Below, one piece after another: positions 7,707 to 22,588 of a DNA stretch of 64,000 nucleotides (within the stretch, counting starts at the first letter, position 1; every line of letters starts with the position of its first letter). The position numbers were made by a program, and so were the translations under genes. The notes beneath the pieces were generated by a model that saw only the letters and a list, made by a program, of their open reading frames with translations, ran no database searches and was not told the DNA's origin. Source of the stretch: Patescibacteria group bacterium (GTDB taxonomy: Bacteria; Patescibacteriota; Patescibacteriia; PEXW01); the NCBI GenBank assembly GCA_041665345.1, contig JBAYJA010000001.1, forward strand, positions 137,206 through 201,205, in the 5' to 3' direction.

Positions 7707-7735
7707 GCTTGACGGCTTTTGTGAGCGGGTTTACT
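7707..7735 (+). promoter_or_regulatory. promoter gggcTTGACG-17-TACTAT upstream of the NrtR gene
   Basis: The ORF track proposes a TTG start at 7703 that falls inside this promoter-like box. I interpret the box as a promoter. Confidence 0.45.
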
Positions 7736-7759
7736 ATGTGTATATCTTACACTAAGTAT

Positions 7760-8434
7760 ATGGCCAAGGTTGCTCGGAAGTACAAATTTGCAGTCATTGC
7801 CTCGGATGTCGTCATGCTGACCGTCCGCGATGGAAAGCTGGAAGTGCTTTGCATTCAGATGCAGAAAGCGCCGTTTATTGGGAAATGGGCCGTGCCGGGC
7901 GGGTTAGTGCAGCCAACGGAATCTGTGGACGAAGCCGCACACCGGATTTTGGCGGAAAAAGCCGGAATCCATGGGGTATACCTGGAGCAGCTGTACACCT
8001 TTGGCAAAGTGCGCCGGGATCCTTTTGGCCGCGTGGTTTCTGTGGCGTACTTCGCGCTGGTGCCCAGTGACGCACTCCGTCTGAAGACCACCAAGGAGTA
8101 CAAGGATGTGCAGTGGTTTCCCGTGAAGAAACTGCCTGGCCTGGCTTACGATCACGCAGACATTGTAGCCACGGCTGTGCAGCGCCTGCAGGCCAAGCTG
8201 GGATACACCAACATTGTGTACAGTCTGCTGCCAAAAACCTTTACCCTTTCGGAACTGCAGGGTATGTACGAAACGATTTTGGGAAAAACACTGGACAAGC
8301 GAAATTTTCGGAAAAAAGTCATTGGTTTAAAGCTGGTGAAGCCGGCAGGGGAGCAGCGGAAAGGCCAGGCTAGCCGGCCAGCGGAGCTGTACCGTTTTGC
8401 CGCCACTGAACTGAAGAAAGTGGAGATTCTCTAG
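7760..8434 (+). CDS. nrtR: NrtR-family regulator (Nudix domain fused to a C-terminal winged helix)
   Basis: Nudix signature GKWAVPGGLVQPTESVDEAAHRILAEKAGI. The C-terminal TLSELQGMYETILGKTLDKRNFRKKV is typical of the NrtR DNA-binding domain. Start set at ATG 7760 (MAKVARKYKFAVIASD). Confidence 0.75.
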   Translation: MAKVARKYKFAVIASDVVMLTVRDGKLEVLCIQMQKAPFIGKWAVPGGLVQPTESVDEAAHRILAEKAGIHGVYLEQLYTFGKVRRDPFGRVVSVAYFALVPSDALRLKTTKEYKDVQWFPVKKLPGLAYDHADIVATAVQRLQAKLGYTNIVYSLLPKTFTLSELQGMYETILGKTLDKRNFRKKVIGLKLVKPAGEQRKGQASRPAELYRFAATELKKVEIL

Positions 8435-8706
8435 CAAAATTTTTTACCTTCATATAAGTGTAAATAATACACTAACTATATGAGCCTTCTCACCCAATTC
8501 TTTGATGTCAACGTTATTTTACAGACTTCGGGTCAATCATGAGGAGATCTTCCCTGAAGGTGCTTTCTTCGTAGGCCGCACTAAGGAGCGGAGGAAGCAG
8601 TTTGAAGGAAGTTCTGCTCAAAACCAGCAGATTAGCTTCCAAAATTGTAAAGCACTTTGACAATTCGAAACCACCATAGAGTATCAAGAATATGTTTTTT
8701 GTGGGC

Positions 8707-8735
8707 TTGACAAATTGTTGAAAGCCTGGTAGAGT
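8707..8735 (+). promoter_or_regulatory. promoter gggcTTGACAaa-17-TAGAGT for the four-gene operon
   Basis: Consensus -35, 17-nt spacer, TAnnnT -10. About 100 nt upstream of the first gene. Confidence 0.55.
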
Positions 8736-8838
8736 GCTTTTTCTTAGAACTGAAGTACTGGAAGAGCTGGGGGCACTTTGAAAACCTAGAAATGAAACAA
8801 TTATTAATGAGATGAATGTTTTTTTGGGAAAGGAGAGA

Positions 8839-9669
8839 ATGATGATTGTGGAAGGCTTGTCAGGTCGCTACACACTAGGCACGCAAGTAGCAGAAACTGA
8901 GAAGTACCGGCTCTACCTTTGTAGAGAAGAAAGCACAGGCCAAGAGTGCTTGCTGCAGATAGCCACAGACAATCAGCATGATGGCACACTATGCCGTTCT
9001 GCTGTTCGGCTAGAAGTACTCAAACGTGCAGCCGATGCACTTGAAGCCGAGTATGAAAAGGTTCGTGAGAACCCTGAGATGCGGCTGAATTACGCCATTG
9101 GTTTCCCTGAGTTGATTGACAGTTTTCCTTGCATTCCGCAAGGTTCACGTCAGATCAATATCCTTGCATTTAGAAATGTTGAGGATGTGAGACACATGGT
9201 GCCGCTGTGTAATATTACTGTTCGGGATCACCTCCGGGTTGATTTTCGAACCAGTGCATGGATCATGGGGAAATTATTAAAGCTCCTGGTCTTTGCGCAC
9301 AGTCAGGGCATTGCGGTTGGACGGCTGGATAGCGCGAACATTTTGATTGAGCCAAAGCAGCACTACGTGTTGTTCTTTGACTGGTCAGAAGCATTTGTCT
9401 ATCCCGAAACTGTTCCGACGGAAATTGCCCGCCAGGAAATTGCCCAGGCCGCCAACGCGGTGATTACTGTTGTTGGAGGAAATCTGGAAACAAGAACTTT
9501 CCCGGACGACGGCGATACTGCGCAAGATCGCTACACGGATTTTTTGCTGCAGCTGGCTGACGGACGTCAGCGGGATGCACAGCAGGCGCACACGGAATTC
9601 TACAAGCTCGTTGATGAGCTCTGGAAACGTGAGTATTACGAATTCACCACGCTACCCGTACACACGTAA
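8839..9669 (+). CDS. protein-kinase-like fold protein (divergent, possibly a pseudokinase)
   Basis: AHSQGIAVGRLDSANILIEPKQHYVLFFDWSEAF aligns with the kinase catalytic-loop/DFG region (HxxGIxHRDLKPxNILI...DFG). The N-terminal GRYTLGTQVAETEKYRLYL resembles a Gly-rich loop. The canonical VAIK Lys and HRD Asp are not conserved. Start at ATG 8839 follows an AAAGGAGAG SD. Confidence 0.55.
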   Translation: MMIVEGLSGRYTLGTQVAETEKYRLYLCREESTGQECLLQIATDNQHDGTLCRSAVRLEVLKRAADALEAEYEKVRENPEMRLNYAIGFPELIDSFPCIPQGSRQINILAFRNVEDVRHMVPLCNITVRDHLRVDFRTSAWIMGKLLKLLVFAHSQGIAVGRLDSANILIEPKQHYVLFFDWSEAFVYPETVPTEIARQEIAQAANAVITVVGGNLETRTFPDDGDTAQDRYTDFLLQLADGRQRDAQQAHTEFYKLVDELWKREYYEFTTLPVHT

Positions 9670-9690: not shown

Positions 9691-10809
9691 ATGGGAAAAG
9701 AAACTTTCTCACGAACCACGTACAGCAAATCGTACGCGAAATTCGCGTCAAAAGATGGTCCGGCAACGTCAAAGGCTGAGCAAACAGCCCACAAAACTGG
9801 TAAGCTGAATCCGCTTGTTGATCCGCAGGGATTTGGCGTGATTCGGCGTTCACTGCTTCGTCTGGAGCAGCTCCCAAATAAACTTTGGGAAGTGACCGTC
9901 GGAAGTCCACTCCCTATCGAAACCCGAGTCGACACGACCGGCAGCATGGGGCATAACGTTGATATTGCTTTACGGGTTCTTCCGAATGCATTTGAGCAGA
10001 TCAGCGAGGTAACCCCGGGCTACGATCAGCAGGTTGCCACCGGTATTTTTGGTGACGTGCAGGACCGGTTTGTCCTGTGCCGTCCGCAGTTTGAAATGGT
10101 TGCGGAGAAAATCGTTGAGCAGCTAACCTTAATGGTTCCTGAGCGAGCCGGTGGTGATGCTGACGAAGATCCGCACTACGGCCTATTTGGAGCCGCTTAC
10201 CTGGTTGCCGCGTACATTAATCGGATCGGTCTGAAAAGGTACGATTTCACTGCTTCTGATGCGTCAGCGCGTGATCGACTTGATGAAAGTCAACTTATCC
10301 GAATATTCGGACCCGACGTTTTCGCCAAGGTCGCCGAAAATGGGCATCAAATGCGCGCCGATGATCTCCCCACAACAGCTGATGTTGTGCAAGATCTCCT
10401 CAAACGCGCACATGCCTTTTTCCTGCAGGTTGGCGACAATTCGGAGACCACCAGATTCTGGACAAGAATCTACGGTCGCGAACGCGTGGTCATTCTGCCA
10501 AGCACCGAGCTAATGCCTCAGGTGCAGGCAACGATCATTGGACTGACCGAAGGAACACTCGATCTGAAAGATGTGCCGGCATTCCTGAAGAAGCACAATG
10601 TGCAATTGGGGGATGCTGAGAAAATCGCCCGTTCGGTTGCCAATATTCCAATTGGCGCACAAGCCGCGTTGCCGAATTTTTCCAAGCGTCCCAAGAAGGG
10701 TGACCTCTTCCGTGAGAAGACCGACCTTTGGCCGGTTGATCCACAGGAGCTTGGAAAAGCTAAGCCCCATAAGGCAAAGCCAGGCGACAAAAAGACTGAA
10801 TGGCTGTAA
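9691..10809 (+). CDS. von Willebrand factor A (vWA) domain protein
   Basis: RVDTTGSMG MIDAS (DxSxS-like) motif after a beta strand. A later GGD segment is present. AGGAAGGAG SD 7 nt upstream. Confidence 0.6.
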   Translation: MGKETFSRTTYSKSYAKFASKDGPATSKAEQTAHKTGKLNPLVDPQGFGVIRRSLLRLEQLPNKLWEVTVGSPLPIETRVDTTGSMGHNVDIALRVLPNAFEQISEVTPGYDQQVATGIFGDVQDRFVLCRPQFEMVAEKIVEQLTLMVPERAGGDADEDPHYGLFGAAYLVAAYINRIGLKRYDFTASDASARDRLDESQLIRIFGPDVFAKVAENGHQMRADDLPTTADVVQDLLKRAHAFFLQVGDNSETTRFWTRIYGRERVVILPSTELMPQVQATIIGLTEGTLDLKDVPAFLKKHNVQLGDAEKIARSVANIPIGAQAALPNFSKRPKKGDLFREKTDLWPVDPQELGKAKPHKAKPGDKKTEWL

Positions 10810-10836: not shown

Positions 10837-12228
10837 GTGATGATGACGAACAAAGTCTACGTTGTCACCGATCTCGGTCCAGGAGACGGTGGCAAAGGTG
10901 GTGTGGTGCACAAAATCTCCACGATGCAGTGCGCGCATACCATTATTAAAGTCGGCGGTGCGCAGGGAAGCCACGGTGTCTGCACCTCGCAGGGTGAAAG
11001 CTTTGCTTTCAGCCAGTGGGGTTGCGGGACGCTGGAAGGGGTGAAAACACACATCTCCTCAGAGATGGTTGTCATGCCCGAAGGTTTACTGAATGAAGCT
11101 GATACCCTGCGCTACAACTGTGGAGTGCACAATGCCTTTGATCTCCTCACGGTTGATGAAAGTGCGCTGTGCGCCACACCCTACCATGGTATTGCCTCAC
11201 GCCTGAAAGAGATGGCGTTGGGCGACCACCCGCGTGGAACCATTGGTACCGGCGTTGGCGAAGCGTTCCGCATAGCGGAACGCATGCCAGAGCTCGCACT
11301 ATACGTTCGTGATCTTTCACGAGCGCATTTGCGACAAAAATTAGCTGACTGCAGAGAGCAAATCCGTTCCGATCTTGCAGGAGTGATGCGCGGGGAATTT
11401 TCCGGTGCTGACCAGGAAGCTGCGCAGCAGGAAATGCATCTTCTGTATGATGATGATTTCCTGACGTATGTCTTCCAACGCTTCCAAACAGTTGGGAAAC
11501 GGGCAACAATTGTTGATCCTGGCTATCTTGGGAGGGAGATTCTCTCGCAAGACGGAGTAGCAATCGTGGAGAAATCCCACGGGGTGCTCACTGATCGCTA
11601 TCATGGTTTTCATCCCCATACCAGCGCTATTCGGACATTGCCATGCTTTGCCGAAGCAATGTTGAGGCGCGCTGGCTATGGCGGAAGTATTATCCACCTT
11701 GGTGTTACTCGGGCATACCAGATTCGCCATGGAGCCGGACCCATGCCAACTGCTGATCCAGCAATGGCAGAACACTTGCTTCCGGGTAGTCACAAGGAGG
11801 AGAATCGTTACCAAGGCAAGATTCGCGTTGGTCCGCTGGATCTTGTCCTGCTTCGCTACGCCCTAGCAGCCTGTGGAGGTCCAACCGCTTTCGATGGCCT
11901 TGCCGTCACGTGGTTTGATCAAATACAGGCAAATGGTGCTTGGCACCTGTGCGATGGGTACGAGGGCAGTATTGGGCAAGACTTTTTCACACCCCTGGGT
12001 GATATAAAAGTCCGGCACGGCAATGATGCGAACCAGCTTGCGTACCAAGAAGCTTTGGGGCAGCACCTCTTGTGCTGCACGCCCAAGCTGCAAACTGTCC
12101 ACTTTTCACCAACCGAAACGCGAGACAATTTGTTCGCGCTTTGTGCTGGTGTGTTACAAGAAAAATTAGGCATTACAACCAGAATGATCTCGTTTGGGCC
12201 AACTGAACGAGACAAAACGTGCAAGTGA
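10837..12228 (+). CDS. adenylosuccinate-synthetase (PurA) family paralogue, divergent
   Basis: P-loop VVTDLGPGDGGKGGVV (PurA GDEGKGK). GGAQGSHGV (PurA GGHNAGHT). HPRGTIGTGVGEAF (PurA TTGRGIGPAY). TRAYQIRHGAGPMPT (PurA GSGPFPTE). Overlaps the next gene, so translational coupling is likely. Confidence 0.8.
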   Translation: MMMTNKVYVVTDLGPGDGGKGGVVHKISTMQCAHTIIKVGGAQGSHGVCTSQGESFAFSQWGCGTLEGVKTHISSEMVVMPEGLLNEADTLRYNCGVHNAFDLLTVDESALCATPYHGIASRLKEMALGDHPRGTIGTGVGEAFRIAERMPELALYVRDLSRAHLRQKLADCREQIRSDLAGVMRGEFSGADQEAAQQEMHLLYDDDFLTYVFQRFQTVGKRATIVDPGYLGREILSQDGVAIVEKSHGVLTDRYHGFHPHTSAIRTLPCFAEAMLRRAGYGGSIIHLGVTRAYQIRHGAGPMPTADPAMAEHLLPGSHKEENRYQGKIRVGPLDLVLLRYALAACGGPTAFDGLAVTWFDQIQANGAWHLCDGYEGSIGQDFFTPLGDIKVRHGNDANQLAYQEALGQHLLCCTPKLQTVHFSPTETRDNLFALCAGVLQEKLGITTRMISFGPTERDKTCK

Positions 12229-12248
12229 AACTTGCAGGAGGACAAACA

Positions 12249-13247
12249 ATGTCAGGAGAAACCCTTGATCCGGTAACTGCTAAACTTCGCGAACTTGGCG
12301 TTGACGATGCAACGATCGGAAAAATTAAAGATGATCTCGGCGCGACGAGTGTTGAAGATCTTGCCGGTCTGACCGAAGCCGATCTCATCGGTACGGGCAT
12401 GAAGGTTTTGCAGGCAAGAAAATTACTTGCCGCGCTTGCCCCTACCGCCTCGCCTACTGCTGATCCTACCGCTGAATTAGCCGAAGGTGAGCAGCCTTCC
12501 AAAGCGCAGGTGAGTGGCTTTGCTGGCATGCTTGGCGCTGATCCTACCGCTCTGCTCCTGCTCATGAGCGGTAAGGGTGGTGATATGGATCTTACATCCA
12601 TGATATCTATTGCTAGCCTGGTCAACGGGTATAATCCCAAACGCCGAGACTTGTACTTGACGGTTATGGGTCAGGTTGAAGGTCGGCTTGGATTACCCAT
12701 TGTTGTTATCGACGGCGATGGCAGCATCAACCGCGAACTTACCATCGAGTACATTGAAGGACTCGAGGAAGGACGTGATTCTGCCGAAAACAACATCTAT
12801 TTCGATTCAACCGGCTCGCCGCATGAAGTCATTCGCGTTGGTGTTGATGCACAGAGCATCTACGACGCTGATCCGTTGAATCCAAGTCGGGCACTGCAGA
12901 AGAGTGGTATGGGTATTGGTCGCGTGAATTGGACCAACGTACCGCTGGAAGTTCGTCAGGTCGCATACTATGCGGTCACCAAAACGGGTGAAATCGACCC
13001 GAATAATGATGCGCATCAGTCGTGGCTCCGTGACAAAATGAAACCAGGCTCAACTCGTCTGGTCTTTCATGGGCAGGCTCCACGTGCAATCAGCGAATTC
13101 AACGAAGCGGCTCGTACTGGTTCGTTACCAACACTTCGGGTCATGCTTTCGCGTGGTCCGCGCCGTCCGGAGTTTATGCCGCGTCGCCGTCGATCATCGC
13201 CAGCCGACCTTACCGGCATTGGCGGACGTCGAGACGATGACATCTAG
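12249..13247 (+). CDS. hypothetical protein with N-terminal tandem HeH/SAP-like helix-hairpin motifs and an Arg-rich C-terminus
   Basis: LRELGVDDATIGKIKDDLGATSVEDLAGLTEADLIG resembles Rho-N/SAP/LEM HeH repeats. An Ala/Pro linker and an unknown C-terminal domain follow. ATG 12249 sits 6 nt after a GCAGGAGGA SD. The in-frame GTG 12219 overlaps the PurA-like stop. Confidence 0.5.
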   Translation: MSGETLDPVTAKLRELGVDDATIGKIKDDLGATSVEDLAGLTEADLIGTGMKVLQARKLLAALAPTASPTADPTAELAEGEQPSKAQVSGFAGMLGADPTALLLLMSGKGGDMDLTSMISIASLVNGYNPKRRDLYLTVMGQVEGRLGLPIVVIDGDGSINRELTIEYIEGLEEGRDSAENNIYFDSTGSPHEVIRVGVDAQSIYDADPLNPSRALQKSGMGIGRVNWTNVPLEVRQVAYYAVTKTGEIDPNNDAHQSWLRDKMKPGSTRLVFHGQAPRAISEFNEAARTGSLPTLRVMLSRGPRRPEFMPRRRRSSPADLTGIGGRRDDDI

Positions 13248-13280
13248 TCGTTAATCGTTCCTTTTTCCACTTTGGTGGGG

Positions 13281-13309
13281 TGGCCAGAAAGCATTACGCT
13301 TTCTGGCCA
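13281..13309. terminator. bidirectional terminator hairpin tggccagaaagc-attac-gctttctggcca
   Basis: Perfect 12-bp stem flanked by T/A runs, between convergent genes. Confidence 0.8.
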
Positions 13310-13315
13310 TTTATT

Positions 13316-15286: not shown

Positions 15287-15407
15287 AACATATTTTATTA
15301 GCCTAGCACTTGCCTACGTAACACCCGTCTTCATCCCTTGAAAAAATGTTTATTTCACCTCTTGACAAGAGTAACAAAAAATGAGAAGGTTGCGGGTCTA
15401 AAAACCA

Positions 15408-15532: not shown

Positions 15533-16081
15533 ATGGGAAACCGTGCGCACATCACCATCGATGTGCAGAATGACTTTTGCCCTGAGGGAAGACTTGCGGT
15601 TACTGCGGGTGATGAAGTTGTACCCGTCATTAACCAGCGGGTGAAGAATCCTGCTTATAAACGCAAGTACAATTCCCGTGATTGGCATCCGCCCGGTTCG
15701 GAGCATTTTAAGAAATGGCCGACGCACTGTGTGGAAAAAACTTTGGGTGCAGCCTTTCATCCGGATTTGGATCTCACAGACGCAGTGATTATTACCAAAG
15801 GTCAAGACCCGGCGCTCGATGGTTACAGCGCCTTTGAGGGTACGACGTCCTGGGGAGCAATGCTGGAAGATGATCTTCGCGCACATGGAATCACCGACAT
15901 TGACATCGAAGGTTTGGCTACTGAATATTGCGTGAAGAAATCTGCTATTGATGGAGCCAAACGTGGTTTCAACGTTACGGTGTACCTCGATGGCTGCCGG
16001 GCAGTGAATATCAAGCCGGGCGACGAAGAAGCAGCGATTGTCGAAATGCGTGCCGCCGGCGTCAACGTTGTGGCCGCCTAA
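15533..16081 (+). CDS. pncA: nicotinamidase/pyrazinamidase (isochorismatase family)
   Basis: ITIDVQNDFC...RDWHPPGSEHF...TEYCVKKSAIDG fits the Asp/Lys/Cys triad pattern. AGGAGG SD. Confidence 0.75.
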   Translation: MGNRAHITIDVQNDFCPEGRLAVTAGDEVVPVINQRVKNPAYKRKYNSRDWHPPGSEHFKKWPTHCVEKTLGAAFHPDLDLTDAVIITKGQDPALDGYSAFEGTTSWGAMLEDDLRAHGITDIDIEGLATEYCVKKSAIDGAKRGFNVTVYLDGCRAVNIKPGDEEAAIVEMRAAGVNVVAA

Positions 16082-16161
16082 GCATAAACCGCTCATTCGC
16101 ACTTGGAGGTACGCGTTCAACTCGCGTACCTCCACCCAAAAAATTTCTTTTAGAGCTTTGT

Positions 16162-16232
16162 GACAGTCACCTGACTGTCCCATTCCTCTGGTCATAACAT
16201 AAGGTTGTGGCCTTGCACTTTCAGAAATACAC
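16162..16232 (+). promoter_or_regulatory. regulatory module copy 1: 8-2-8 palindrome gacagtca-cc-tgactgtc, 6 nt, then a 47-nt conserved element ctctggtcataacataaggttgtggccttgcac...
   Basis: Recurs at 16638-16708 with the same spacing, directly upstream of the next gene. The element can form a 9-bp RNA hairpin ggucauaac/guuguggcc using G-U pairs. Confidence 0.55.
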
Positions 16233-16255: not shown

Positions 16256-16570
16256 ATGGTAAACGTACAAGCCTTTGAGTTGCGGAAGTTGATTCCCGAA
16301 CTTGAGGCACAACTCAAGCAAGCGAGACAAGCGCTTGAAGCGATTGAAGCACGGTGCTCGCATAGCTGGGGCCCAGTACAGTACGACCCCATCGAGCATG
16401 CTGCATATCACATTCCCGGCGACCCGCCGGAGTTTAGCGGCGCAGATCATCGATTTCCAATGGACGTGCCCGCCCGAACCGAGAAACGTTGGCGACGGGA
16501 TTGCATCCATTGCGGAAAACCAGAATACACAAACCATACAAAACCTGCTGGGGAAGAGCCAGTGTTCTAA
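16256..16570 (+). CDS. hypothetical small protein (Cys/His-rich)
   Basis: 104 aa. CSHSW...CIHCGKPEY. SD gaggtg upstream. Confidence 0.5.
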   Translation: MVNVQAFELRKLIPELEAQLKQARQALEAIEARCSHSWGPVQYDPIEHAAYHIPGDPPEFSGADHRFPMDVPARTEKRWRRDCIHCGKPEYTNHTKPAGEEPVF

Positions 16571-16637
16571 TGGATGTTGTGGGTGAAGTATGTGCTTGTT
16601 TGTGCATACTTCACCCCTTTCTCATGAAGAGACGAGA

Positions 16638-16708
16638 GATGATTATGTGATCATCTTCTATCTCTGGTCATAACATTAGGTTGTGGCCTTGCACCTTAAG
16701 AAAATGAA
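16638..16708 (+). promoter_or_regulatory. regulatory module copy 2: palindrome gatgatta-tg-tgatcatc, 6 nt, then the conserved element ctctggtcataacattaggttgtggccttgcacc...
   Basis: About 90% identical to copy 1 over 47 nt. A partial third copy (tgcaccttgaaaacatg) lies at 18256-18285 upstream of the Nudix/pncB genes. Confidence 0.55.
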
Positions 16709-16731: not shown

Positions 16732-18132
16732 GTGAAAGTCATCATGTATGGCTTAAGCGCTAATCCGCCTGGGATACACCATCGTTTATTGGTGCAGGAA
16801 ATGGCGAAGTATGCAGACCTGGTCATTGTGGTGCCGTGCGGTTTACGGCCGGACAAGTTGACCACGAATGATATCCCGCCGTTGTACCGTGCAGCAATGA
16901 CCGACATGACCTTTCAGGACATTCCAAATGTATGCGTGGATCTGTCTGACTTAGAACGATCAGTATTCACGCGAAGTTGGGAGTTGTTGCAAAGGTATGA
17001 GCGAGAATATCCTGGAGCGGAACTTTGCTTGGCAGTTGGTGGCGATCTTATTGCCAACGGTCGCTATGGTGAGTCAGCCATTCACCGCAAGTGGGAGCAG
17101 GGGAAAACACTGTGGGAAAATGCAAACTTCATTGTTTGCAATCGCCTGCACACTCCCTTTGATCCTGTGGATCTACCCCCACACTGCCAGTTTGTGCATG
17201 TAGACCTTGTCGGTTCCAGCACAGACATTCGGGATCGCGTGTTCGGACACAAACCAATTACCGGTTTGGTGATGCCGAGCGTGGAGACCTACATTCATCG
17301 GTACAATCTGTACCGGGGCATGATGGCGGCCACAACCGCGAAGCATGCCAGCTTAGATAATCCTCGCCTGCTCATACTGGCAGATGCTGAGACGCCACGA
17401 GCAATGGCAATCGCTTCGCAGTTCGCGCGGTTTGAGGATGCTGAAAATCCAAACGGCATTTTGGTCTGTGGCGGTGATGGCATGATGCTGCAAGCAATTC
17501 GGCAGGAGTGGCGCCGACGTTTGCCCTTCATCGGCATGAATGCTGGCCATTGGGGGTTCCTCATGAATAGCTTCGAAGAAATCACCGCAATGGATCACGC
17601 CTTTGATGACCTCTCTTTTGTCCAGTCGCCCATGCTGTACGTGGAGTCAGTGCGGCCAGATGGAACCACGGCAAATGCCTTGGCGTTCAACGACTGCTGG
17701 ACGCATTCGCAGAACAATGGGCAAGCAGCGAAATCTGAGGTTCGCGTGAACGGCAGAGTCTGCCTCAAGTCCGTGGTGTCAGATGGCATGCTGGTGAGTA
17801 CGGCCGCGGGATCAACCTCGTATGCGCGGGCAATGGGCGCTATGCCACTTCCGGTGGGCTCGAGTCAGCTTATCCTCGTGGGCAGCAATGTGTTTTCCCC
17901 CTTTGGGTGGCGGCCAGCGTACCTGCCAATTACCGATCGGATTTGCATCCGAACTTTGGAACCGGAGAAGCGTCCGGTAGATGCATTTGTTGATGGTATT
18001 TCCTTTGGGCAAACCATGCAGCTCGATGCCCGAACCAGCAATATTGCTTCCGTGGAAATTGGATTCTTCGGCGCACACGATTTGCAGGAGAAGATCCGCG
18101 CAATTCAGTTCGTTGAGCAGTATCTTCAATAG
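16732..18132 (+). CDS. bifunctional fusion: nicotinate/nicotinamide-mononucleotide adenylyltransferase (NadD-like) N-terminal, NAD kinase (NadK) C-terminal
   Basis: The N-terminus MYGLSANPPGIHHRLL matches the (H/T)xGH nucleotidyltransferase motif of NadD. The C-terminus has GGDGMML (NAD kinase GGDGT motif), NDxW and TAAGSTSYARAMGA (NadK GSTAYS motif). It is a single 466-aa ORF. Confidence 0.8.
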   Translation: MKVIMYGLSANPPGIHHRLLVQEMAKYADLVIVVPCGLRPDKLTTNDIPPLYRAAMTDMTFQDIPNVCVDLSDLERSVFTRSWELLQRYEREYPGAELCLAVGGDLIANGRYGESAIHRKWEQGKTLWENANFIVCNRLHTPFDPVDLPPHCQFVHVDLVGSSTDIRDRVFGHKPITGLVMPSVETYIHRYNLYRGMMAATTAKHASLDNPRLLILADAETPRAMAIASQFARFEDAENPNGILVCGGDGMMLQAIRQEWRRRLPFIGMNAGHWGFLMNSFEEITAMDHAFDDLSFVQSPMLYVESVRPDGTTANALAFNDCWTHSQNNGQAAKSEVRVNGRVCLKSVVSDGMLVSTAAGSTSYARAMGAMPLPVGSSQLILVGSNVFSPFGWRPAYLPITDRICIRTLEPEKRPVDAFVDGISFGQTMQLDARTSNIASVEIGFFGAHDLQEKIRAIQFVEQYLQ

Positions 18133-18302
18133 TCGCACTTTCCATTGTGCGGGGGCATGGTTCTACTCCATGCCCCCCGCATATTCCTTCAAAGCTTTGC
18201 AACGAACTTGGTTGGTTGCAGCGCTTTCATCCAGAAATAGTTCTGGGTGATGCACCTTGAAAACATGCAAGCAAATGAACATATATTTGAGAAAGGAACA
18301 TT

Positions 18303-18917
18303 ATGGTACAGCCAAAAGTGCGACCGCAAGGCAGTTTCGCCTTGGAGACTGTTGATATCAATGGTCGAAATTGGTCGGTGCTACACGCTTCAGACTCAGC
18401 CGGTTTATTGGTCTTTCTGAAAGATCGTAATGCCATTGTGCTGGTCCGGCAGCAGCGTGCGCCCATGGTTTCTGCACACAATCCGGAAGGTTCGATTACG
18501 GAACTTCTCGCTGGTCGGTTCGACAAAGACGAGACGCCAATCCAGTTGCTGGTTCGCGAGGCTTCAGAGGAAGCTGGAATCGCCATTGATGCCAGTCAGA
18601 TCAAAGTACTCAACTTTGGTCACCCGCTTGCCCTCTCAGCCGGCATTATTGATGAACTATGCTGGATTGGTTACGTGGAAATTTCCGATGACCAAATTGA
18701 CCCCAGCGGTAAGCTTTACGGACTGCACGAGGAAGGAGAGTTCATTGACCGGATCATGATTCCGGTTGAGCAACTTGAATCCCTGGTTTGTGAAGATGCT
18801 CGTGTCTTCGGCATGATCCAGTGGTTCCTGCGTTGGCAAATGGAACACCGTCTGCAAGCATTAACAGACCAGCTGGAGAAATTCGAACGCGAGATGAACG
18901 AAACGAAAACGATTTGA
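18303..18917 (+). CDS. Nudix hydrolase, likely ADP-ribose pyrophosphatase
   Basis: Nudix box GRFDKDETPIQLLVREASEEAGI. Sits between nadD-nadK and pncB. Confidence 0.7.
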   Translation: MVQPKVRPQGSFALETVDINGRNWSVLHASDSAGLLVFLKDRNAIVLVRQQRAPMVSAHNPEGSITELLAGRFDKDETPIQLLVREASEEAGIAIDASQIKVLNFGHPLALSAGIIDELCWIGYVEISDDQIDPSGKLYGLHEEGEFIDRIMIPVEQLESLVCEDARVFGMIQWFLRWQMEHRLQALTDQLEKFEREMNETKTI

Positions 18918-18926: not shown

Positions 18927-20195
18927 TTGAAGGTGCTTACAACACGCTTTATTCGAAAAGATGAGGCGATCATCCAGTCGTTGCTTGACGTGGACTTCTA
19001 TAAGTTCACGATGAGCCACTTCATTTGGAAGTACTACCGGGACGTCGAGGTAACCTTCGGGATGAAGAACCGTACGAGTCACGTTCGCCTCGCGGAAATT
19101 ATTCCAGAAGGAGCTTTACGTGAGCAGCTGAACTACGTCCGGGATTACCTCAGATTCAACTTGAGTGAAATTTTTTACATGCGAGGTATGGATATCTACG
19201 GGAAGAACATGTTTTCGGAGGATTACCTGGATTTCCTGAAGGCACTCGCCATGAGTGATTATCAGTTACGCGTGGTTGATGGTCAGTTTGATCTACGCTT
19301 CACTTGTCTTTGGCCGGCCGTTACTTTCTGGGAGACAATTTCGCTGGCGATTGCCAACGAGTTGTACTACCTAGAAATCCTGAAGGAAGAAACTCGGTTC
19401 GATCGACAGGCAATCTATGCCGAAGGTATCAAGCGACTCCACGAGAAAATAAAAAAACTCAAGGAGCACCCTGACCTAACATTCATCGAGTTTGGTACAC
19501 GCCGGAGATTTGGCCGAGTTTGGCAGCGCGATGTCGTCTGTGCGTTAGCCGAAGAATTACCACCGACGCAATTCCGTGGTACGTCAAACACAAAGTTGGC
19601 GTTTGACCTTGGCTTAGTTCCCATGGGTACCAACGCGCATGAACTGCAAATGGTAGTTGGCGCCCTCGCTAAGGACGATGCTGCACTTCTGGCTTCCACT
19701 GACAAAGTGCTTGATCAGTGGTGGGAGTTGTACGGTTACGGTCTCTCTATCGCGCTACCGGACACTTTTGGCTCCGATTTCTTCTTTCAAACATTTGGTG
19801 AAGAGCGAGCAAAGAAGTGGAAAGGTGTGCGGGAGGACTCCCGTGATCCGTTTGTGGGCGGCGAGCAAGTTATTCAGTACTACCAGAGTCTAGGTATTGA
19901 CCCCAAGACGAAGCTCTGGTTGCCGAGTGATGGTTTAGACATTCAGAAGATCATCGCGCTTCACAATCAATTTTGTAACCGCATCGGCCTGTCATTTGGC
20001 TGGGGCACAACCCTCACGAATGATCTCGGTTTACCCACGCTCTCTCTTGTCGCCAAGACAATTGAAGCGAATGGCCGACCGTGTGTGAAGCTTTCGGACA
20101 ATTTGGCCAAGGCCATGGGTCCGAAAGATGAAGTCGAACGGTATAAACGCGTATTCGGCTATACGAATACGCATACCGAAGAGTGCAAAGTCTGA
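18927..20195 (+). CDS. pncB: nicotinate phosphoribosyltransferase
   Basis: 422 aa with NAPRTase-family motifs (FGTRR...; LPDTFGSDFF; VREDSRDP). TTG start is 4 nt after an AAGGGAG SD. Confidence 0.85.
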   Translation: MKVLTTRFIRKDEAIIQSLLDVDFYKFTMSHFIWKYYRDVEVTFGMKNRTSHVRLAEIIPEGALREQLNYVRDYLRFNLSEIFYMRGMDIYGKNMFSEDYLDFLKALAMSDYQLRVVDGQFDLRFTCLWPAVTFWETISLAIANELYYLEILKEETRFDRQAIYAEGIKRLHEKIKKLKEHPDLTFIEFGTRRRFGRVWQRDVVCALAEELPPTQFRGTSNTKLAFDLGLVPMGTNAHELQMVVGALAKDDAALLASTDKVLDQWWELYGYGLSIALPDTFGSDFFFQTFGEERAKKWKGVREDSRDPFVGGEQVIQYYQSLGIDPKTKLWLPSDGLDIQKIIALHNQFCNRIGLSFGWGTTLTNDLGLPTLSLVAKTIEANGRPCVKLSDNLAKAMGPKDEVERYKRVFGYTNTHTEECKV

Positions 20196-20327
20196 TTTGC
20201 TTGCATGGTATGTACATTCCGGTGGGAGATTTCAACTATCTCCCACCCCTCATTCTAGTTATGCAAGAGTTTGGATAATTGAAGTGAGGAAAACTGATCA
20301 TTATAAACATATTGCACAGGAGGAAAA

Positions 20328-20807
20328 ATGCGCGTCGTATACTGGCTTGAAACCTTTCCACCACCGAGTGACAAATCAATTTTTTTAGCCGGACCTACGC
20401 CACGGCATGAAGGAGTGCAAACCTGGCGTCCAAAGGCGCTGGAAACGTTGGAGCGGCTTGGGTATGACGGCGTGGTCTTTGTACCTGAGTATCGTAACGG
20501 CCAGTTGCCAAAGGTGGATATGGCAGCGTATACGGATCGGATTGACTGGGAAACCAGTGCCCTTGCGCGGGCTCAAGTTATTGCCTTCTGGGTACCACGT
20601 GTACTGGAGACCATGCCAGCCTTCACGACCAATATCGAATTTGGTGAATGGTTCAAGTCCGGCAAAATTGTTCTGGGTACGCCGCCAGAAGCGCGGAAGG
20701 TAAGTTACATGCGTTACCGCGCTGGTCAACATCTGGTGCCGCTGGCAGAAACGTTGGAAGACACGCTGAAACTGGCTTTGCGGAAGCTGGGCGATCTTGC
20801 AAAGTAA
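20328..20807 (+). CDS. nucleoside 2-deoxyribosyltransferase-like (Rossmann) protein
   Basis: IFLAGPTPR ... VIAFWVPR ... TNIEFGEW resembles the NDT/YtoQ family pattern. AGGAGG SD. Confidence 0.5.
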   Translation: MRVVYWLETFPPPSDKSIFLAGPTPRHEGVQTWRPKALETLERLGYDGVVFVPEYRNGQLPKVDMAAYTDRIDWETSALARAQVIAFWVPRVLETMPAFTTNIEFGEWFKSGKIVLGTPPEARKVSYMRYRAGQHLVPLAETLEDTLKLALRKLGDLAK

Positions 20808-20926
20808 AAAGGTTCTTTCGGTGGAGAAGCATTTCTCCACCGTTCCCTCCAGCATCCCACAAGTAGTGGGGGATTGGAGGGAAAGAAAAAAGTTAATTAA
20901 AAACTCAATAGAGAAAGGACATAGTT

Positions 20927-22588
20927 GTGAAAATCGCTTTGCTCCAACTGAATTTTACCGTGGGTGATTTAGAAGGAAACACCACGAAGATTATTGCTGG
21001 CTATCAGCAGGCGAAAGCGCAAGGTGCGCGGTATGCAGTGAGTTCGGAGTTGGCTATCTTTGGCTACCCGCCTCAGGATTTGTTGGAATTTCCAGAATAC
21101 TTGGAACGTCAAGATGCGCAAATTGAACGCCTCCGTCAGGAAGTGAAGGGCGAAACGAGCCTCATTGTTGGCATTGCGGAGCGGAATACCACCGGGACAG
21201 GGAAACCCCTGTTTAACAGTGTGATACACATCTACGATCAACAGGTGCTGGTTATTGGTCGGAAGTGTTTACTGCCGACGTACGATGTATTTGATGAGCA
21301 GCGGTATTTCACGCCTGCCGAACTCCCGCGTCCGATCAGGCGGGATAGGACATCCATCGCCACATTAGTATGCGAAGACATTTGGTACGGTTCTGAATTT
21401 GTCAGCGGTCATCATCTGTACAAAGATGATCCAGTCGGTCACCTTGAGGGTCTGGGTGTGGACTTCCTTTTCGTTCTCAACGGTTCGCCGTACACCTGGC
21501 ACAAAGGTCGGGAGCGGTTTACCCTAGTGCAGAATATCGCACAGCGTTGCAAGTGTAACGTAGTGTACGTCAATCAAGTTGGCGGCAATGACGACATTCT
21601 TTTTGACGGCCGGAGTTTCGTTGTCAATCCCCAAGGGGAATGCATTGGCGCTGCGGAGCCGTTCAAGGAGCAGGTTGTTATAGTCGATATGGACAACCCT
21701 ACTCCGGTTGCGTATCCGTTCGATGATAACCTGCGTGATCTCTACGATGCTTTGGTTATGGCCACCCGTGATTACATTGCGAAAGTTGGTTGTCAGCAAG
21801 GTGTGGTCATTGGCCTTTCTGGCGGTATTGACTCTGCGTTAACCGCGGCAATCGCAGTTGATGCGCTGGGCCCCGACAAGGTTGTAGGCATAACCATGCC
21901 CTCAGTGCTCTCTTCGAGCGGGAGCGTCAGTGACTCTCTGGCTCTCGCCAAGAATTTGGGAATACAGTGTTTCACCGTTCCCATTGGTTGTACGGTTGAT
22001 AGCTACGGGAAAGCGCTGGAGCCGATCATTGGTTGGTACCCAGCAACTGCACGACCGGGTGATGTGACCGAGGAGAACATCCAGGCCAGGACGCGGGGGA
22101 ATATACTCATGGCGCTTTCAAACCGGGTGGGAAAAATCGTTTTGACCACCGGCAACAAATCGGAAGTGGCTGTGGGCTACTGCACGTTGTACGGCGATAT
22201 GGCAGGTGGGTATGCGGTCATTTCCGACATTCCCAAGACTTTGGTGTATGCACTCTCAAGGTACGTCAATCGGTTTGGAGAAATCATTCCCGAAAGTACC
22301 CTCACCAAGCCGCCATCGGCCGAACTTCGACCGGATCAGAAAGACACTGATTCATTGCCGGCGTATGAGGTGCTGGATCCGATTCTGAAAGCCTACAATG
22401 AAGATCGGATGACGGTAGGGCAGATTATCGAGCTTGGTTTGGCGGATGCAGCCACAGTGCATCGGGTCATTCGCATGGTCAACACGAATGAGTTCAAACG
22501 GCGGCAACTTGCACCGGGTCCGAAGGTAACCTCCAAAGCCTTTGGGTCTGGTCGGCGCATGCCCATTGCTGCCAAAATGATTAGCTAG
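20927..22588 (+). CDS. nadE: glutamine-dependent NAD+ synthetase
   Basis: N-terminal CN-hydrolase domain (MKIALLQLNFTVGD...). C-terminal PP-loop SGGIDSALTAAIA. 553 aa. Confidence 0.9.
   Translation: MKIALLQLNFTVGDLEGNTTKIIAGYQQAKAQGARYAVSSELAIFGYPPQDLLEFPEYLERQDAQIERLRQEVKGETSLIVGIAERNTTGTGKPLFNSVIHIYDQQVLVIGRKCLLPTYDVFDEQRYFTPAELPRPIRRDRTSIATLVCEDIWYGSEFVSGHHLYKDDPVGHLEGLGVDFLFVLNGSPYTWHKGRERFTLVQNIAQRCKCNVVYVNQVGGNDDILFDGRSFVVNPQGECIGAAEPFKEQVVIVDMDNPTPVAYPFDDNLRDLYDALVMATRDYIAKVGCQQGVVIGLSGGIDSALTAAIAVDALGPDKVVGITMPSVLSSSGSVSDSLALAKNLGIQCFTVPIGCTVDSYGKALEPIIGWYPATARPGDVTEENIQARTRGNILMALSNRVGKIVLTTGNKSEVAVGYCTLYGDMAGGYAVISDIPKTLVYALSRYVNRFGEIIPESTLTKPPSAELRPDQKDTDSLPAYEVLDPILKAYNEDRMTVGQIIELGLADAATVHRVIRMVNTNEFKRRQLAPGPKVTSKAFGSGRRMPIAAKMIS

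What the first reader, a model, noticed from the sequence alone, without database searches (positions are those of the whole stretch)
7707..22588. NAD salvage/ADP-ribose regulon island with NrtR, fused NadD-NadK, PncA, PncB, NadE, ADPR-Nudix and an NDT-like gene
All NAD genes present are salvage steps; no de novo nadA/B/C genes occur in the window. They are clustered with an NrtR-type regulator whose effector is normally ADP-ribose, plus an ADP-ribosylglycohydrolase (4841) and an ADP-ribose Nudix hydrolase. The cluster is interrupted by genes of unknown function (the four-gene operon, the 16256 small Cys/His protein, the 20328 deoxyribosyltransferase-like protein). Those genes may belong to the same regulon.
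Basis: partly seen in the sequence, partly recalled or inferred. Interest (0 to 1): 0.6.

Follow-up and report, generated by a model that had tools for sequence, protein, structure and literature searches.

The report
NAD salvage island with NrtR-linked module
A tiny-genome (Patescibacteria) bacterium keeps its NAD-recycling genes next to an ADP-ribose-sensing repressor, but the repressor's binding sites flank only its own gene and lead into an uncharacterised five-gene module that is also found in phages.

Summary
The genes are real: NrtR, PncA, NadD-NadK fusion, Nudix, PncB, NDT-like and NadE, with ARH upstream. No nadA/B/C was found among the window's large ORFs tested. The organism is a Patescibacteria MAG.

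GTGTA-N5-TACAC at 8459 is the core of a 21-bp NrtR box (8455-8475). It has an unnoticed twin at 7735-7755 over the nrtR promoter. Both boxes recur at the same two positions in at least 12 related loci. No other copy exists in the 64 kb, so the salvage genes carry no box here.

The palindromes at 16162 and 16638 are inner stems of paired hairpins whose structure, not sequence, is conserved.

The "four-gene operon" plus the convergent 656-aa gene forms a five-gene module: pseudokinase-like, possibly vWA-like, divergent PurA-like, SAM/HhH protein and nucleotidyltransferase. It was intact in 9 loci sampled and partly covered by a tenth, and op2 alone has over 1000 homologues. It lies beside NAD genes with NrtR boxes in four lineages. 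It also occurs on a terminase-bearing phage-like contig and partly in Bixzunavirus mycobacteriophages.

The module's biochemistry is unknown.

The parts
4841..5902 (+). ADP-ribosylglycohydrolase (ARH/ARG). It has its own TTGACA-type promoter and no NrtR box.
   Evidence: Pfam PF03747, 8.8e-42. No box in the window apart from the two at nrtR.
7692..7700 (+). DnaA-box-like word TGTGGATAA just upstream of the nrtR -35 element
   Evidence: The same word sits at the same place in L086, L087/L101, L090, L105/L107 and L119.
7709..7737 (+). Sigma-70-like nrtR promoter: TTGACG, 17-nt spacer, TACTAT
   Evidence: The same layout (TTGACA, N17, TACTAT) occurs in related loci.
7735..7755 (.). NrtR box 1, TATGTGTATATCTTACACTAA. 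It overlaps the -10 element and the expected transcription start.
   Evidence: Its core, GT-N7-AC, matches the NrtR family consensus (PMC2330246). It is conserved in at least 12 loci.
7760..8434 (+). nrtR: a Nudix-like sensor domain with a degenerate Nudix box (RILAEK) plus an NrtR winged-helix domain
   Evidence: The start codon was set by homology with the gene calls in L003, L086 and L087.
8455..8475 (.). NrtR box 2, TAAGTGTAAATAATACACTAA, 21 nt after the nrtR stop codon.
   Evidence: A box at the same position occurs in L086, L087, L090, L092, L102, L106, L107, L112, L119, L067 and L114.
8526..8640 (+). Weakly conserved relic of the structured leader that precedes the PP2C cassette in related genomes
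   Evidence: Alignment A7.
8707..8735 (+). Sigma-70-like promoter (TTGACA, 17 nt, TAGAGT, preceded by TG), 75 nt upstream of op1
8812..9669 (+). op1: protein-kinase-fold protein without a conserved catalytic Lys or Asp (pseudokinase-like)
   Evidence: PHROG 3043 'kinase', 6e-10. A family profile matches CK2 alpha at 4e-7. Alignment A4 shows the catalytic positions vary.
9691..10809 (+). op2: 372-aa protein with an invariant D-x-T-G-S motif. A vWA-like fold is possible but not proven.
   Evidence: More than 1000 homologues, 62-75% identical across Patescibacteria. PHROG 2971, 1e-5. 27% identical to phage gp252. The AF2 model was poor and there was no PDB match.
10837..12228 (+). op3: divergent member of the PurA (adenylosuccinate synthetase) superfamily. 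It is not a canonical PurA.
   Evidence: PF00709, 5e-32. The NCBIfam score is 81 bits against a cut-off of 402. PHROG 1211, 1e-40.
12219..13247 (+). op4: N-terminal SAM/HhH-like domain, a C-terminal domain of unknown fold, and an Arg-rich tail
13278..13312 (.). Hairpin between the convergent op4 and u656 genes (terminator-like)
13316..15286 (-). u656: helical-repeat protein with a C-terminal Pol-beta-type nucleotidyltransferase motif (GS...DxD, invariant). It is the fifth gene of the module.
   Evidence: Synteny across ten loci is shown.
15362..15390 (+). Putative pncA promoter: TTGACA, 17 nt, GAAGGT (weak -10)
   Evidence: Read. L087 has TTGACA, 17 nt, TAAGGT at the equivalent place. This is an inference.
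15409..15448 (.). The 41-bp palindrome (17-nt arms, 94% complementary) between the pncA promoter and its RBS. It is unique in the window.
   Evidence: I24. L086 and L087 have other long hairpins at this place. L114, L124 and L126 have NrtR boxes there instead.
15533..16081 (+). pncA, nicotinamidase
   Evidence: NF008623, 1e-44. Isochorismatase family.
16152..16212 (+).
16256..16570 (+). 104-aa Cys/His protein. A homologue lies inside the PP2C cassette of L086.
16628..16688 (+).
16732..18132 (+). Fused NaMN adenylyltransferase (NadD) and NAD kinase (NadK)
18192..18250 (+). Hairpin pair H1 (18192-18226) and H2 (18227-18250) upstream of nudix-pncB, followed by the same tail, TGCACCTT
18303..18917 (+). 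Nudix hydrolase with a canonical Nudix box, resembling ADP-ribose pyrophosphatases
18927..20195 (+). pncB, nicotinate phosphoribosyltransferase
20328..20807 (+). Nucleoside 2-deoxyribosyltransferase-like protein (PF15891)
   Evidence: It recurs in the NAD islands of L007, L008 and L087.
20927..22588 (+). nadE, glutamine-dependent NAD synthetase
22612..22640 (+). The only canonical intrinsic terminator of the pncA-to-nadE string (GC-rich stem followed by a T-run)

Best explanation
The stretch is a genuine NAD(P) salvage and ADP-ribose handling neighbourhood of a Patescibacteria bacterium. It is built from three separately wired blocks.

Block 1 is nrtR. It has two 21-bp palindromic NrtR boxes. 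One overlaps the -10 element and transcription start of its own sigma-70-like promoter. The other lies 21 nt past its stop codon. By analogy with characterised NrtR proteins, the degenerate Nudix domain binds ADP-ribose and releases the DNA. nrtR, and transcription running out of it, would therefore be de-repressed when NAD is being broken down. This step is inferred.

Block 2 is a self-contained five-gene module: pseudokinase-like op1, op2, PurA-like op3 and SAM/HhH op4, facing the convergent nucleotidyltransferase u656. It lies directly downstream of box 2 but also has its own promoter. It is a conserved unit in Patescibacteria. It joins the NrtR regulon in at least four lineages and is also carried by phage-like DNA. 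I take it to be an accessory nucleotide-dependent ligase or modification system that responds to NAD/ADP-ribose turnover. A phage-host conflict role, or a response to NAD depletion, seems more likely than a step of the classical salvage route. Its chemistry is not established.

Block 3 is the string pncA, 104-aa gene, nadD-nadK, nudix-pncB, NDT-like gene and nadE. It encodes the Preiss-Handler route: nicotinamide to nicotinate, to NaMN, to NaAD, to NAD, then to NADP. It also includes ADP-ribose cleavage. This block has no NrtR box. It has one TTGACA-type promoter ahead of pncA and one canonical terminator after nadE. It has paired hairpins in front of three of its transcription units (the 104-aa gene, nadD-nadK, nudix-pncB). 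It is most simply read as one long transcript whose intercistronic hairpins act at the RNA level. This reading is inferred.
For: Gene identities.

Organism.

NrtR boxes:
- There are two copies in 64 kb, against about 0.07 in shuffled sequence.
- The GT-N7-AC core matches the family consensus in PMC2330246.
- The promoter overlap is shown.
- The same two positions carry boxes in at least 12 loci fetched with a box pattern or through NadD-NadK relatives.

Module:
- It was intact in 9 loci and partly covered by a tenth.
- Boxes lie 39 nt upstream of op1 in L114, 290 nt upstream in L126, and ahead of pncA-op1 in L124. Boxes also lie between u656 and pncA/ARH.
- op2, op3 and op4 are far more conserved (50-77% identity) than PncA, PncB or NrtR (29-49%) between the same genomes.
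- On the phage side, Bixzunavirus carries kinase, gp252 and a PurA-like gene together. L131 has a terminase (2.5e-151) and an endolysin beside the full module.
- op3 keeps the P-loop and the conserved Asp and His, but its substrate-binding segments differ.
- op1 has a kinase fold without conserved catalytic residues.

Block 3:
- No boxes were found.
- The hairpin pairs are shown.
- A 47-nt insertion in the H1 loop of L085 leaves the stem intact.
- The only stem-plus-T-run terminator follows nadE.
Against: - Binding of NrtR to the boxes, and ADP-ribose as its effector, are inferred from the family and were not tested here.
- Box 2 lies 250 nt upstream of a good promoter for op1, so NrtR control of the module in this genome may be weak or vestigial.
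- In L112, box 2 is followed by a convergent gene.
- The region after box 2 looks like a relic of a leader that precedes a different (PP2C) cassette in relatives.
- Six of ten module contexts have no NAD genes, and no boxes were found in those loci.
- The high conservation of op2 and op3 is unusual for conflict systems.
- No transcript data exist, so the single-transcript model for pncA to nadE is unproven.
- The H2 hairpin shows two non-compensated mismatches in one L087 copy.
- The op2 fold is undetermined.
Confidence: 0.6

Rival explanations
1. All genes from nrtR to nadE, including the unknown ones, form one NrtR/ADP-ribose regulon that shares a common operator.
For: In relatives this is close to true. 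L126 (Microsaccharimonas) has five box-like sites in 19 kb, against 0.02 expected. They lie in front of pncA/hisPhos, op1, u656/ARH and nadE/nadD. L114 and L097 have boxes before op1, between u656 and pncA, and before pncB. L124 has boxes before pncA-op1.
Against: In this window the box occurs only at 7735 and 8455. No site with 3 or fewer mismatches lies before pncA, the 104-aa gene, nadD-nadK, nudix, the NDT-like gene, nadE or ARH. The other candidate palindromes differ in sequence from the box and from each other. L086 and L087 likewise have only two boxes each.
Confidence: 0.12
2. Box 2 is only an auxiliary operator, a roadblock or a looping partner for nrtR autoregulation. Alternatively it is a leftover of the ancestral nrtR-leader-PP2C arrangement. 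On this view the five-gene module was inserted there as a mobile cassette and is expressed from its own promoter, independently of NrtR.
For: - Box 2 sits right after the nrtR stop codon whatever follows it, including a convergent gene in L112.
- A strong promoter at 8707-8735 lies downstream of box 2.
- Window 8526-8640 aligns to the leader of the PP2C cassette.
- The module occurs in unrelated contexts, next to integrase or transposase genes and on phage-like DNA.
Against: Independent boxes precede the module in L126 and L124, where nrtR is 8 kb away or not in the fetched stretch. In L114 a box lies 39 nt from the op1 start codon. Four of ten module contexts lie within NAD islands. NAD islands make up roughly 1-2% of a genome of about 1 Mb.
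Confidence: 0.3
3. The module is metabolic. It is a new nucleotide pathway serving NAD economy. One version has the PurA-like enzyme activating an oxygen with NTP and forming a C-N bond, for instance rebuilding NAD from ADP-ribose and nicotinamide. Another version has it supplying adenylate for NAD synthesis.
For: - Sequence conservation of op2, op3 and op4 is very high across Patescibacteria classes.
- Gene order is fixed.
- The module is adjacent to pncA in the window, L114 and L124.
- It shows NrtR control in four lineages.
- op3 keeps the catalytic P-loop, Asp and His but has altered substrate-binding segments.
- Phages are known to carry NAD reconstitution pathways, NARP1-3 (abstracts).
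Against: - op1 lacks conserved kinase catalytic residues.
- The SAM/HhH domain, the Arg-rich tail and the helical-repeat nucleotidyltransferase are not typical of small-molecule pathways.
- Distant relatives of the op4 C-terminal domain are fused to effector-associated domains EAD7 and EAD9.
- The genome already has a complete Preiss-Handler route.
- No enzyme assay exists.
Confidence: 0.22
4. The hairpin pairs upstream of the 104-aa gene, nadD-nadK and nudix are DNA-level sites rather than RNA structures. They would be promoters with an embedded operator for an unidentified transcription factor.
For: - H2 reads as an imperfect palindrome, GGYCRYAAC-N4/5-GTTRYGRCC. In every copy in the window and L087, one half-site is a perfect GGCCACAAC.
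- A/T-rich hexamers resembling -10 boxes lie between the inner H1 stem and H2.
- One L087 copy has two mismatches that would weaken an RNA stem.
Against: - The H1 and H2 sequences differ completely between genes of one genome and between L086, L007 and the window, while the structure and position stay the same.
- G-U pairs make the stems perfect only as RNA.
- A 47-nt insertion in the H1 loop of L085 keeps the stem, which a promoter spacer could not tolerate.
- The H2 loop length varies between 4 and 5 nt.
Confidence: 0.25

Closest known systems
NrtR regulons of NAD metabolism (Rodionov et al. 2008, PMC2330246)
   Same: - The regulator has a Nudix-like sensor plus a winged-helix domain.
- The operator is a 21-bp palindrome with a GT-N7-AC core.
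- The regulator's own promoter carries a box, which implies autoregulation.
- The regulator is clustered with pncA, pncB, nadD and nadE.
   Different: - In this genome the boxes flank only nrtR and lead into a non-NAD module. The salvage genes carry none.
- The host is a Patescibacteria lineage. I did not check whether the 2008 survey covered this phylum.
- The second box sits at a fixed position just after the stop codon.
ARG-centred systems regulated by a Nudix or WYL transcription factor, predicted to counter viral ADP-ribosylation (Iyer, Burroughs, Anantharaman, Aravind 2022, PMC9503650, section 3.8)
   Same: - An ADP-ribosylglycohydrolase (NADAR in L087) lies near an NrtR-like repressor.
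- The variable accessory genes include kinase or phosphatase genes and a possible vWA protein.
- Cassettes are displaced between related genomes.
   Different: - ARH here has its own promoter and no box.
- No rhodanese-phosphatase, REase or ARPP gene came up in the family scans of the genes examined; none was searched for specifically.
- The system is embedded in a full NAD salvage cluster.
- The core proteins are slowly evolving rather than rapidly evolving.
PurA and PurZ adenylosuccinate-synthetase superfamily, including phage PurA-like proteins (PHROG 1211)
   Same: - The alignment to PurA extends over residues 9-384 of 463.
- The P-loop GDxGKG and the conserved Asp and His are kept.
- The closest annotated relatives are the phage 'PurA-like' genes of Bixzunavirus, about 34% identical.
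   Different: - The scores are far below the PurA equivalog cut-offs.
- The segments aligned to TTGRGIGP, EGAQG, STRVG, TGRxRRxGW and TKLD are changed.
- None of the proteins scanned in or near the module matched a DatZ, MazZ or DpoZ family (no dedicated search).
- The gene is always accompanied by op1, op2, op4 and u656.
Phage NAD reconstitution pathways NARP1-3 (abstracts seen)
   Same: These are phage-borne gene sets tied to NAD/ADP-ribose economy. The conceptual link is that ADP-ribose signals NAD depletion.
   Different: No homologue of Adps, Namat, Nampt/Nmnat or PnuC/NadR is present in the module. The functional link is only a hypothesis.
vWA - Ser/Thr kinase - PP2C phosphatase triads ('TerY-P'-type; recalled from memory, not checked here)
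   Same: A kinase-like protein and a possible vWA protein occur in the window's module. A PP2C phosphatase and a kinase-like protein occur in the cassette that occupies the same slot in related genomes.
   Different: - The kinase-like protein lacks conserved catalytic residues.
- The vWA fold is not demonstrated.
- The PurA-like, SAM and nucleotidyltransferase partners are not part of those triads.

Membership tests
NrtR family regulator | N-terminal Nudix-like domain plus a C-terminal NrtR winged-helix DNA-binding domain | tested here: met
   PF00293, 8e-18, and PF21906, 1.4e-24.
NrtR family regulator | 21-bp palindromic operator with a GT-N7-AC core, present at its own or its target promoters | tested here: met
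   Boxes lie at 7735-7755 and 8455-8475. They are conserved in at least 12 loci. The consensus is from PMC2330246.
NrtR family regulator | ADP-ribose weakens DNA binding | not testable with these tools
   This needs EMSA or ITC. The Nudix box is degenerate (RILAEK in place of REUXEE, read), which is compatible with a sensor role.
NrtR regulon of NAD salvage genes | Operator upstream of the NAD biosynthesis or salvage genes | tested here: not met
   No box with 3 or fewer mismatches lies upstream of pncA, nadD-nadK, nudix-pncB, the NDT-like gene or nadE in the window. The feature is met in relatives L126, L114/L097 and L124.
Preiss-Handler NAD salvage pathway | PncA, PncB, NadD and NadE are all present | tested here: met
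Adenylosuccinate synthetase (PurA) | Score above the equivalog cut-off, with conserved IMP-, aspartate- and guanine-binding segments | tested here: not met
   81 bits against a cut-off of 402. The aligned segments are altered. The roles of the residues are recalled from E. coli PurA structures.
Protein kinase (active) | Conserved beta3 Lys, catalytic-loop Asp and DFG Asp | tested here: not met
   The fold-level match to CK2 is 4e-7. The Lys and catalytic Asp positions vary among eight homologues, and only the DFG-like Asp is mostly kept.
vWA domain (op2) | Rossmann-like fold with a DxSxS...T...D MIDAS motif | tested here: inconclusive
   D-x-T-G-S is invariant. There is no Pfam or PDB hit. The AF2 model has pLDDT 49.6 and Foldseek found nothing.
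ARG-centred Nudix-TF conflict system (Iyer et al. 2022) | An ARG gene without a coupled ART, a Nudix or WYL transcription factor, a coupled phosphatase, a chaperone such as vWA, and variable effector modules | tested here: inconclusive
   ARG and the Nudix transcription factor are present. No phosphatase is in the window, though relatives have PP2C and His_Phos_1. The vWA fold is unproven. No REase or ARPP turned up in the scans run. ARG lacks a box.
Known anti-phage defence systems (PADLOC) | A match to any PADLOC model | tested here: not met
   No hit for op1-op4, u656, the 104-aa protein, NadD-NadK, the NDT-like protein, or the 234- and 187-aa ORFs upstream of nrtR.
Known RNA families (Rfam) for the hairpin elements | A match at or near the gathering score | tested here: not met
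   Only a tRNA was found in the window. Nothing meaningful was found in 7400-22700 or in the L087 leader.

The most novel reading that the evidence does not exclude
The five-gene module comprises a pseudokinase-like protein, op2, a divergent PurA-like NTP-dependent ligase, a SAM/HhH protein and a nucleotidyltransferase. On the most novel reading it is a previously undescribed system shared between Patescibacteria and phages. It would be switched on by ADP-ribose through NrtR. It would carry out new chemistry on a nucleotide or a macromolecule in response to NAD breakdown. One example is a one-enzyme reconstitution of NAD from ADP-ribose and nicotinamide. Another is a base or protein modification used in phage-host conflict.
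Probability: 0.3. Interest if true: 0.8.

Novelty: new variant of a known kind. Interest (0 to 1): 0.6.

Why it matters
Patescibacteria are ultra-small and largely uncultured. They depend on salvaged cofactors, and almost nothing is known about how they regulate genes.

This locus offers three things:
- A testable operator and promoter design for such an organism.
- Evidence that the ADP-ribose sensor NrtR is wired, in several lineages, to a conserved module of unknown function rather than only to NAD enzymes.
- A link between that module and phages.

If the module handles NAD depletion or ADP-ribosylation, it would extend the current picture of NAD-centred phage-host conflict to a new enzyme family and to the candidate phyla radiation.

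If the module is metabolic, it would be a new nucleotide-ligase pathway.

The paired intercistronic hairpins, and the structured leader in related genomes, are candidate new cis-regulatory RNAs.

Tried and rejected
- **Rfam.** Scans of the window and of the island at a permissive E-value found only a tRNA and noise. The L087 leader also gave nothing.
- **PADLOC.** No hit.
- **Exact look-up of the PurA-like protein.** This failed, probably because the start codon is uncertain.
- **Genome-collection scan with NadD-NadK.** It found no close relative of the organism (best 47% identity). It did show that the fusion is widespread and mostly solitary outside Patescibacteria.
- **H2 as an NrtR site.** Rejected, because its centre has AA-N7-TT where NrtR boxes have GT-N7-AC (read).
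- **The 41-bp palindrome as an NrtR site.** Rejected. AGTGCA resembles the half-site AGTGTA, but the inverted halves are 10 nt apart rather than 5 (read).
- **A sigma-54 promoter reading of CTGG...TTGCA.** Rejected on spacing, and the pattern is absent from L086 (read).
- **H1 as a promoter spacer.** Rejected because of the 47-nt loop insertion in L085.
- **A covariance model for H1-H2.** Not built. The hairpins share too little sequence for the model to be specific.
- **Structure of op2.** The AF2 model, built on a 22-sequence alignment, had pLDDT 49.6. The Foldseek results are therefore meaningless. A profile search against PDB sequences found nothing.
- **Structure of op4.** The model was good (pLDDT 81). 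Only its N-terminal 55 residues matched known folds (SAM, RAD51-N) in the PDB and BFVD libraries.
- **Literature searches.** No paper was found on the kinase/gp252/PurA-like module or on Patescibacteria NAD regulation.

Full report
**1. What is in the sequence**

- NrtR: Nudix 8e-18 plus NrtR winged helix 1.4e-24.
- PncA at 15533-16081 on the + strand. The longer minus-strand ORF over it is spurious.
- A NadD-NadK fusion at 16732-18132: NaMN adenylyltransferase 7e-20 for residues 6-194, and NAD kinase 8e-41 for residues 223-461.
- A Nudix hydrolase with a canonical Nudix box at 18303-18917.
- PncB, a PF15891 deoxyribosyltransferase-like protein, and glutamine-dependent NadE.
- An ADP-ribosylglycohydrolase lies upstream at 4841-5902.

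Twenty other large ORFs of the window gave no NadA, NadB or NadC family. GC content is even across the window.

Exact-sequence look-ups place the locus on a 1.08-Mb contig of a Patescibacteria MAG. Two further public copies are identical.

**2. The operator question**

The word GTGTA-N5-TACAC at 8459-8473 is the centre of a 21-bp palindrome, TAAGTGTAAATAATACACTAA (8455-8475). These are the only two matches in 64 kb. Shuffled sequence gives about 0.07.

Rodionov et al. (PMC2330246, read) describe most NrtR motifs as 21-bp palindromes with a conserved GT-N7-AC core. Both sites fit this description.

Box 1 overlaps the -10 element of a sigma-70-like promoter: TTGACG, 17 nt, TACTAT at 7709-7737. 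It lies just ahead of ATG 7760. Homology with related NrtR genes identifies this ATG as the true start. Box 2 begins 21 nt after the nrtR stop codon.

**3. Comparative test**

Relatives were reached in two ways: through NadD-NadK homologues and through a metagenome scan with the box pattern.

In at least 12 independent Patescibacteria loci the same two positions carry boxes. Box 1 sits on a TTGACA-N17-TACTAT promoter. Box 2 sits just past the stop codon. This is strong evidence that the boxes are functional and belong to NrtR. Binding itself, and release by ADP-ribose, remain inferences from the family.

No box-like site with 3 or fewer mismatches precedes pncA, the 104-aa gene, nadD-nadK, nudix-pncB, the NDT-like gene, nadE or ARH in this window. 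L086 and L087 likewise have only two boxes each.

Other lineages do have boxes at salvage genes:
- L126 (Microsaccharimonas) has five sites in 19 kb, against 0.02 expected. All are intergenic: pncA/hisPhos, upstream of op1, u656/ARH, and nadE/nadD.
- L114 and L097 have boxes before op1, between u656 and pncA, and before pncB.
- L124 has boxes before pncA-op1.

The single-regulon idea therefore holds in some relatives but not, by the operator criterion, in this genome.

**4. The other palindromes**

The palindromes at 16162 and 16638 have different sequences, so they cannot be copies of one operator.

Each is the inner stem of a longer hairpin, H1. The basal stem of H1 is AGAG/CUCU, or AAAGC/GCUUU before nudix. 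H1 is followed at once by a second hairpin, H2, and a short tail, TGCACYTT.

The 42-nt stretch covering the 3' base of H1, all of H2 and the tail is 93% identical between the two copies. Each copy starts exactly 70 nt before its start codon.

The same two-hairpin layout precedes several genes:
- nudix here;
- c28, nadD-nadK and nudix in L086 and L087;
- nadD-nadK in L007, L011 and L038, judged by eye from the upstream sequences.

The stem sequences are conserved between the window and L087, and replaced by unrelated complementary sequences in L086 and L007.

Several points favour a structure, most simply in RNA:
- G-U pairs make the stems perfect only as RNA.
- The H2 loop length varies.
- In L085, a 47-nt insertion sits in the H1 loop while the stem is kept.

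One L087 copy has two uncompensated mismatches, so the case is not closed.

None of these genes has a TTGACA-type promoter. pncA has one (TTGACA 15362-15367), followed by the unique 41-bp palindrome. Only nadE ends with a stem plus a T-run. I therefore read pncA to nadE as probably one long transcript with structured intercistronic regions. This is inference only.

**5. The 'four-gene operon' is a five-gene module**

op1-op4 (8812-13247) and the convergent 656-aa gene form a unit that recurs with the same order and orientation. It was found in L114, L124 (Falkowbacteria), L126 (Microsaccharimonas), L128, L130 (partial), L131, L132, L133 and L134.

The five proteins:
- **op1.** It matches a phage 'kinase' family, and as a profile it matches CK2 alpha at 4e-7. 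The catalytic Lys and Asp positions are not conserved, so it is pseudokinase-like.
- **op2.** It has more than 1000 homologues, 62-75% identical across Patescibacteria. It has an invariant D-x-T-G-S motif. Its fold could not be established.
- **op3.** It belongs to the PurA superfamily but scores far below the PurA cut-offs. In the alignment to solved PurA structures it keeps the P-loop and the conserved Asp and His. The segments that, by my recollection of E. coli PurA, hold the IMP-, aspartate- and guanine-binding residues are changed.
- **op4.** It has a SAM/HhH-like N-terminal domain and a confidently modelled C-terminal domain with no PDB or viral-structure match. Distant relatives of the C-terminal domain are fused to effector-associated domains EAD7 and EAD9.
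- **u656.** It combines helical repeats with an invariant GS...DxD Pol-beta nucleotidyltransferase motif.

**6. Links of the module**

*Link to NAD genes.* The module lies beside NAD salvage genes in four of ten contexts, and in all four there are NrtR boxes at or near it. This is far more often than expected for islands that occupy about 1-2% of a 1-Mb genome. In the other six contexts there are neither NAD genes nor boxes.

*Link to phages.* Bixzunavirus mycobacteriophages carry a kinase, an op2-like gp252 (27% identity) and a PurA-like gene (34% identity) together. The IMG/VR contig L131 has a large terminase (2.5e-151), a DNA methyltransferase and an endolysin next to a complete module. 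Integrase or transposase genes flank the module in L124, L128 and L134.

*Conservation.* Between the same genome pairs, op2, op3 and op4 are 50-77% identical, whereas PncA, PncB and NrtR are 29-49% identical. op1 and u656 diverge faster, so uniform recent transfer does not explain the pattern.

**7. The slot after nrtR**

In most related genomes the slot after box 2 holds a different four-gene cassette: PP2C phosphatase, a ~620-aa weak protein-kinase homologue, a ~345-aa distant isochorismatase relative, and a ~262-aa protein.

In L086, L087, L092 and L119 this cassette is preceded by a ~140-nt leader. The leader has a 13-bp closing stem showing compensatory changes at five pairs, followed by an intrinsic terminator. 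No Rfam family matches it.

Window 8526-8640 aligns weakly to this leader. It is followed by a good promoter at 8707-8735.

The module may therefore have replaced the PP2C cassette in this lineage. If so, box 2 control of the module here could be read-through only, or vestigial.

**8. How it most likely works**

*Shown:*
- the gene set;
- the two conserved boxes and their overlap with the promoter;
- the absence of boxes at the salvage genes;
- the conserved module and its repeated association with NrtR boxes and with phage DNA;
- the hairpin architecture.

*Inferred:*
- NrtR represses its own promoter and blocks transcription leaving nrtR until ADP-ribose accumulates.
- The module is then raised above its basal expression.
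- The salvage string is transcribed from the pncA promoter and shaped by RNA hairpins.
- The Nudix enzyme cleaves ADP-ribose.
- The NDT-like protein acts as an N-glycosidase on a pyridine or other nucleotide.

The module's role is open. I favour an accessory system responding to NAD/ADP-ribose turnover in phage-host conflict. This is in the spirit of the Nudix-TF-regulated ARG systems predicted by Iyer et al. (PMC9503650). A new metabolic ligase pathway is the main rival.

**9. Verdict**

As a whole the locus is a new variant of the known NrtR/NAD-salvage theme. The embedded five-gene module and the RNA-like elements are the genuinely new parts and deserve follow-up.

Noticed in passing
window 7692-7700: A perfect DnaA-box-like word, TGTGGATAA, lies about 10 nt upstream of the nrtR -35 element. 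The same word is at the same place in L086, L087/L101, L090, L105/L107 and L119.
   Followed up: partly
L086 2392-2545; L087 2326-2465; also L092 and L119. Possible relic at window 8526-8640.: A structured leader of about 140 nt lies between NrtR box 2 and the PP2C cassette. It has a 13-bp closing stem with compensatory changes at 5 pairs among 4 sequences, an inner hairpin, and an A-run/hairpin/U-run terminator. No Rfam match was found. It is a candidate new cis-regulatory RNA.
   Followed up: partly
L007, L011, L067, L086, L087, L090, L092, L106, L107, L119 (downstream of nrtR): A conserved four-gene cassette sits in the slot that the five-gene module occupies in the window. It comprises PP2C, a ~620-aa weak Pkinase homologue, a ~345-aa distant isochorismatase relative and a ~262-aa protein.
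   Followed up: partly
window 22718-22738 and 29007-29027: Two sites share GTGTAGGTACT: TATGTGTAGGTACTATACCGG and TAGGTGTAGGTACTTCACCAT. The first lies in the long nadE/cytochrome-b5 intergenic region. They may be sites for another regulator.
   Followed up: no
window 24221-24946: Three tandem 69-aa ORFs lie downstream of the cytochrome-b5 and PepSY-like genes.
   Followed up: no
window 6969-7000 and 7537-7568; also 4279, 5966 and 7030: Two nearly identical terminator hairpins (94% identity) and a family of promoters, CTTGACATTT...TAnTGT, serve the genes upstream of nrtR.
   Followed up: no
L005-L084: The NadD-NadK fusion is widespread in MAGs of Verrucomicrobiota, Planctomycetota and Acidobacteriota, among others. 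It is usually not clustered with other NAD genes there.
   Followed up: partly
window 45161-46666: A thymidine/AMP-phosphorylase-like gene (Glycos_transf_3 plus PYNP_C).
   Followed up: no
L131 1206-6404: A large terminase (2.5e-151), a ParB/DNA methyltransferase and an endolysin lie next to a complete copy of the five-gene module on an IMG/VR contig. The host of this phage-like element is unknown.
   Followed up: partly
window 15409-15448: The inner arms of the 41-bp palindrome (AGTGCAAA) resemble the NrtR half-site (AGTGTAAA), but the inverted halves are 10 nt apart rather than 5. The meaning is unclear.
   Followed up: partly
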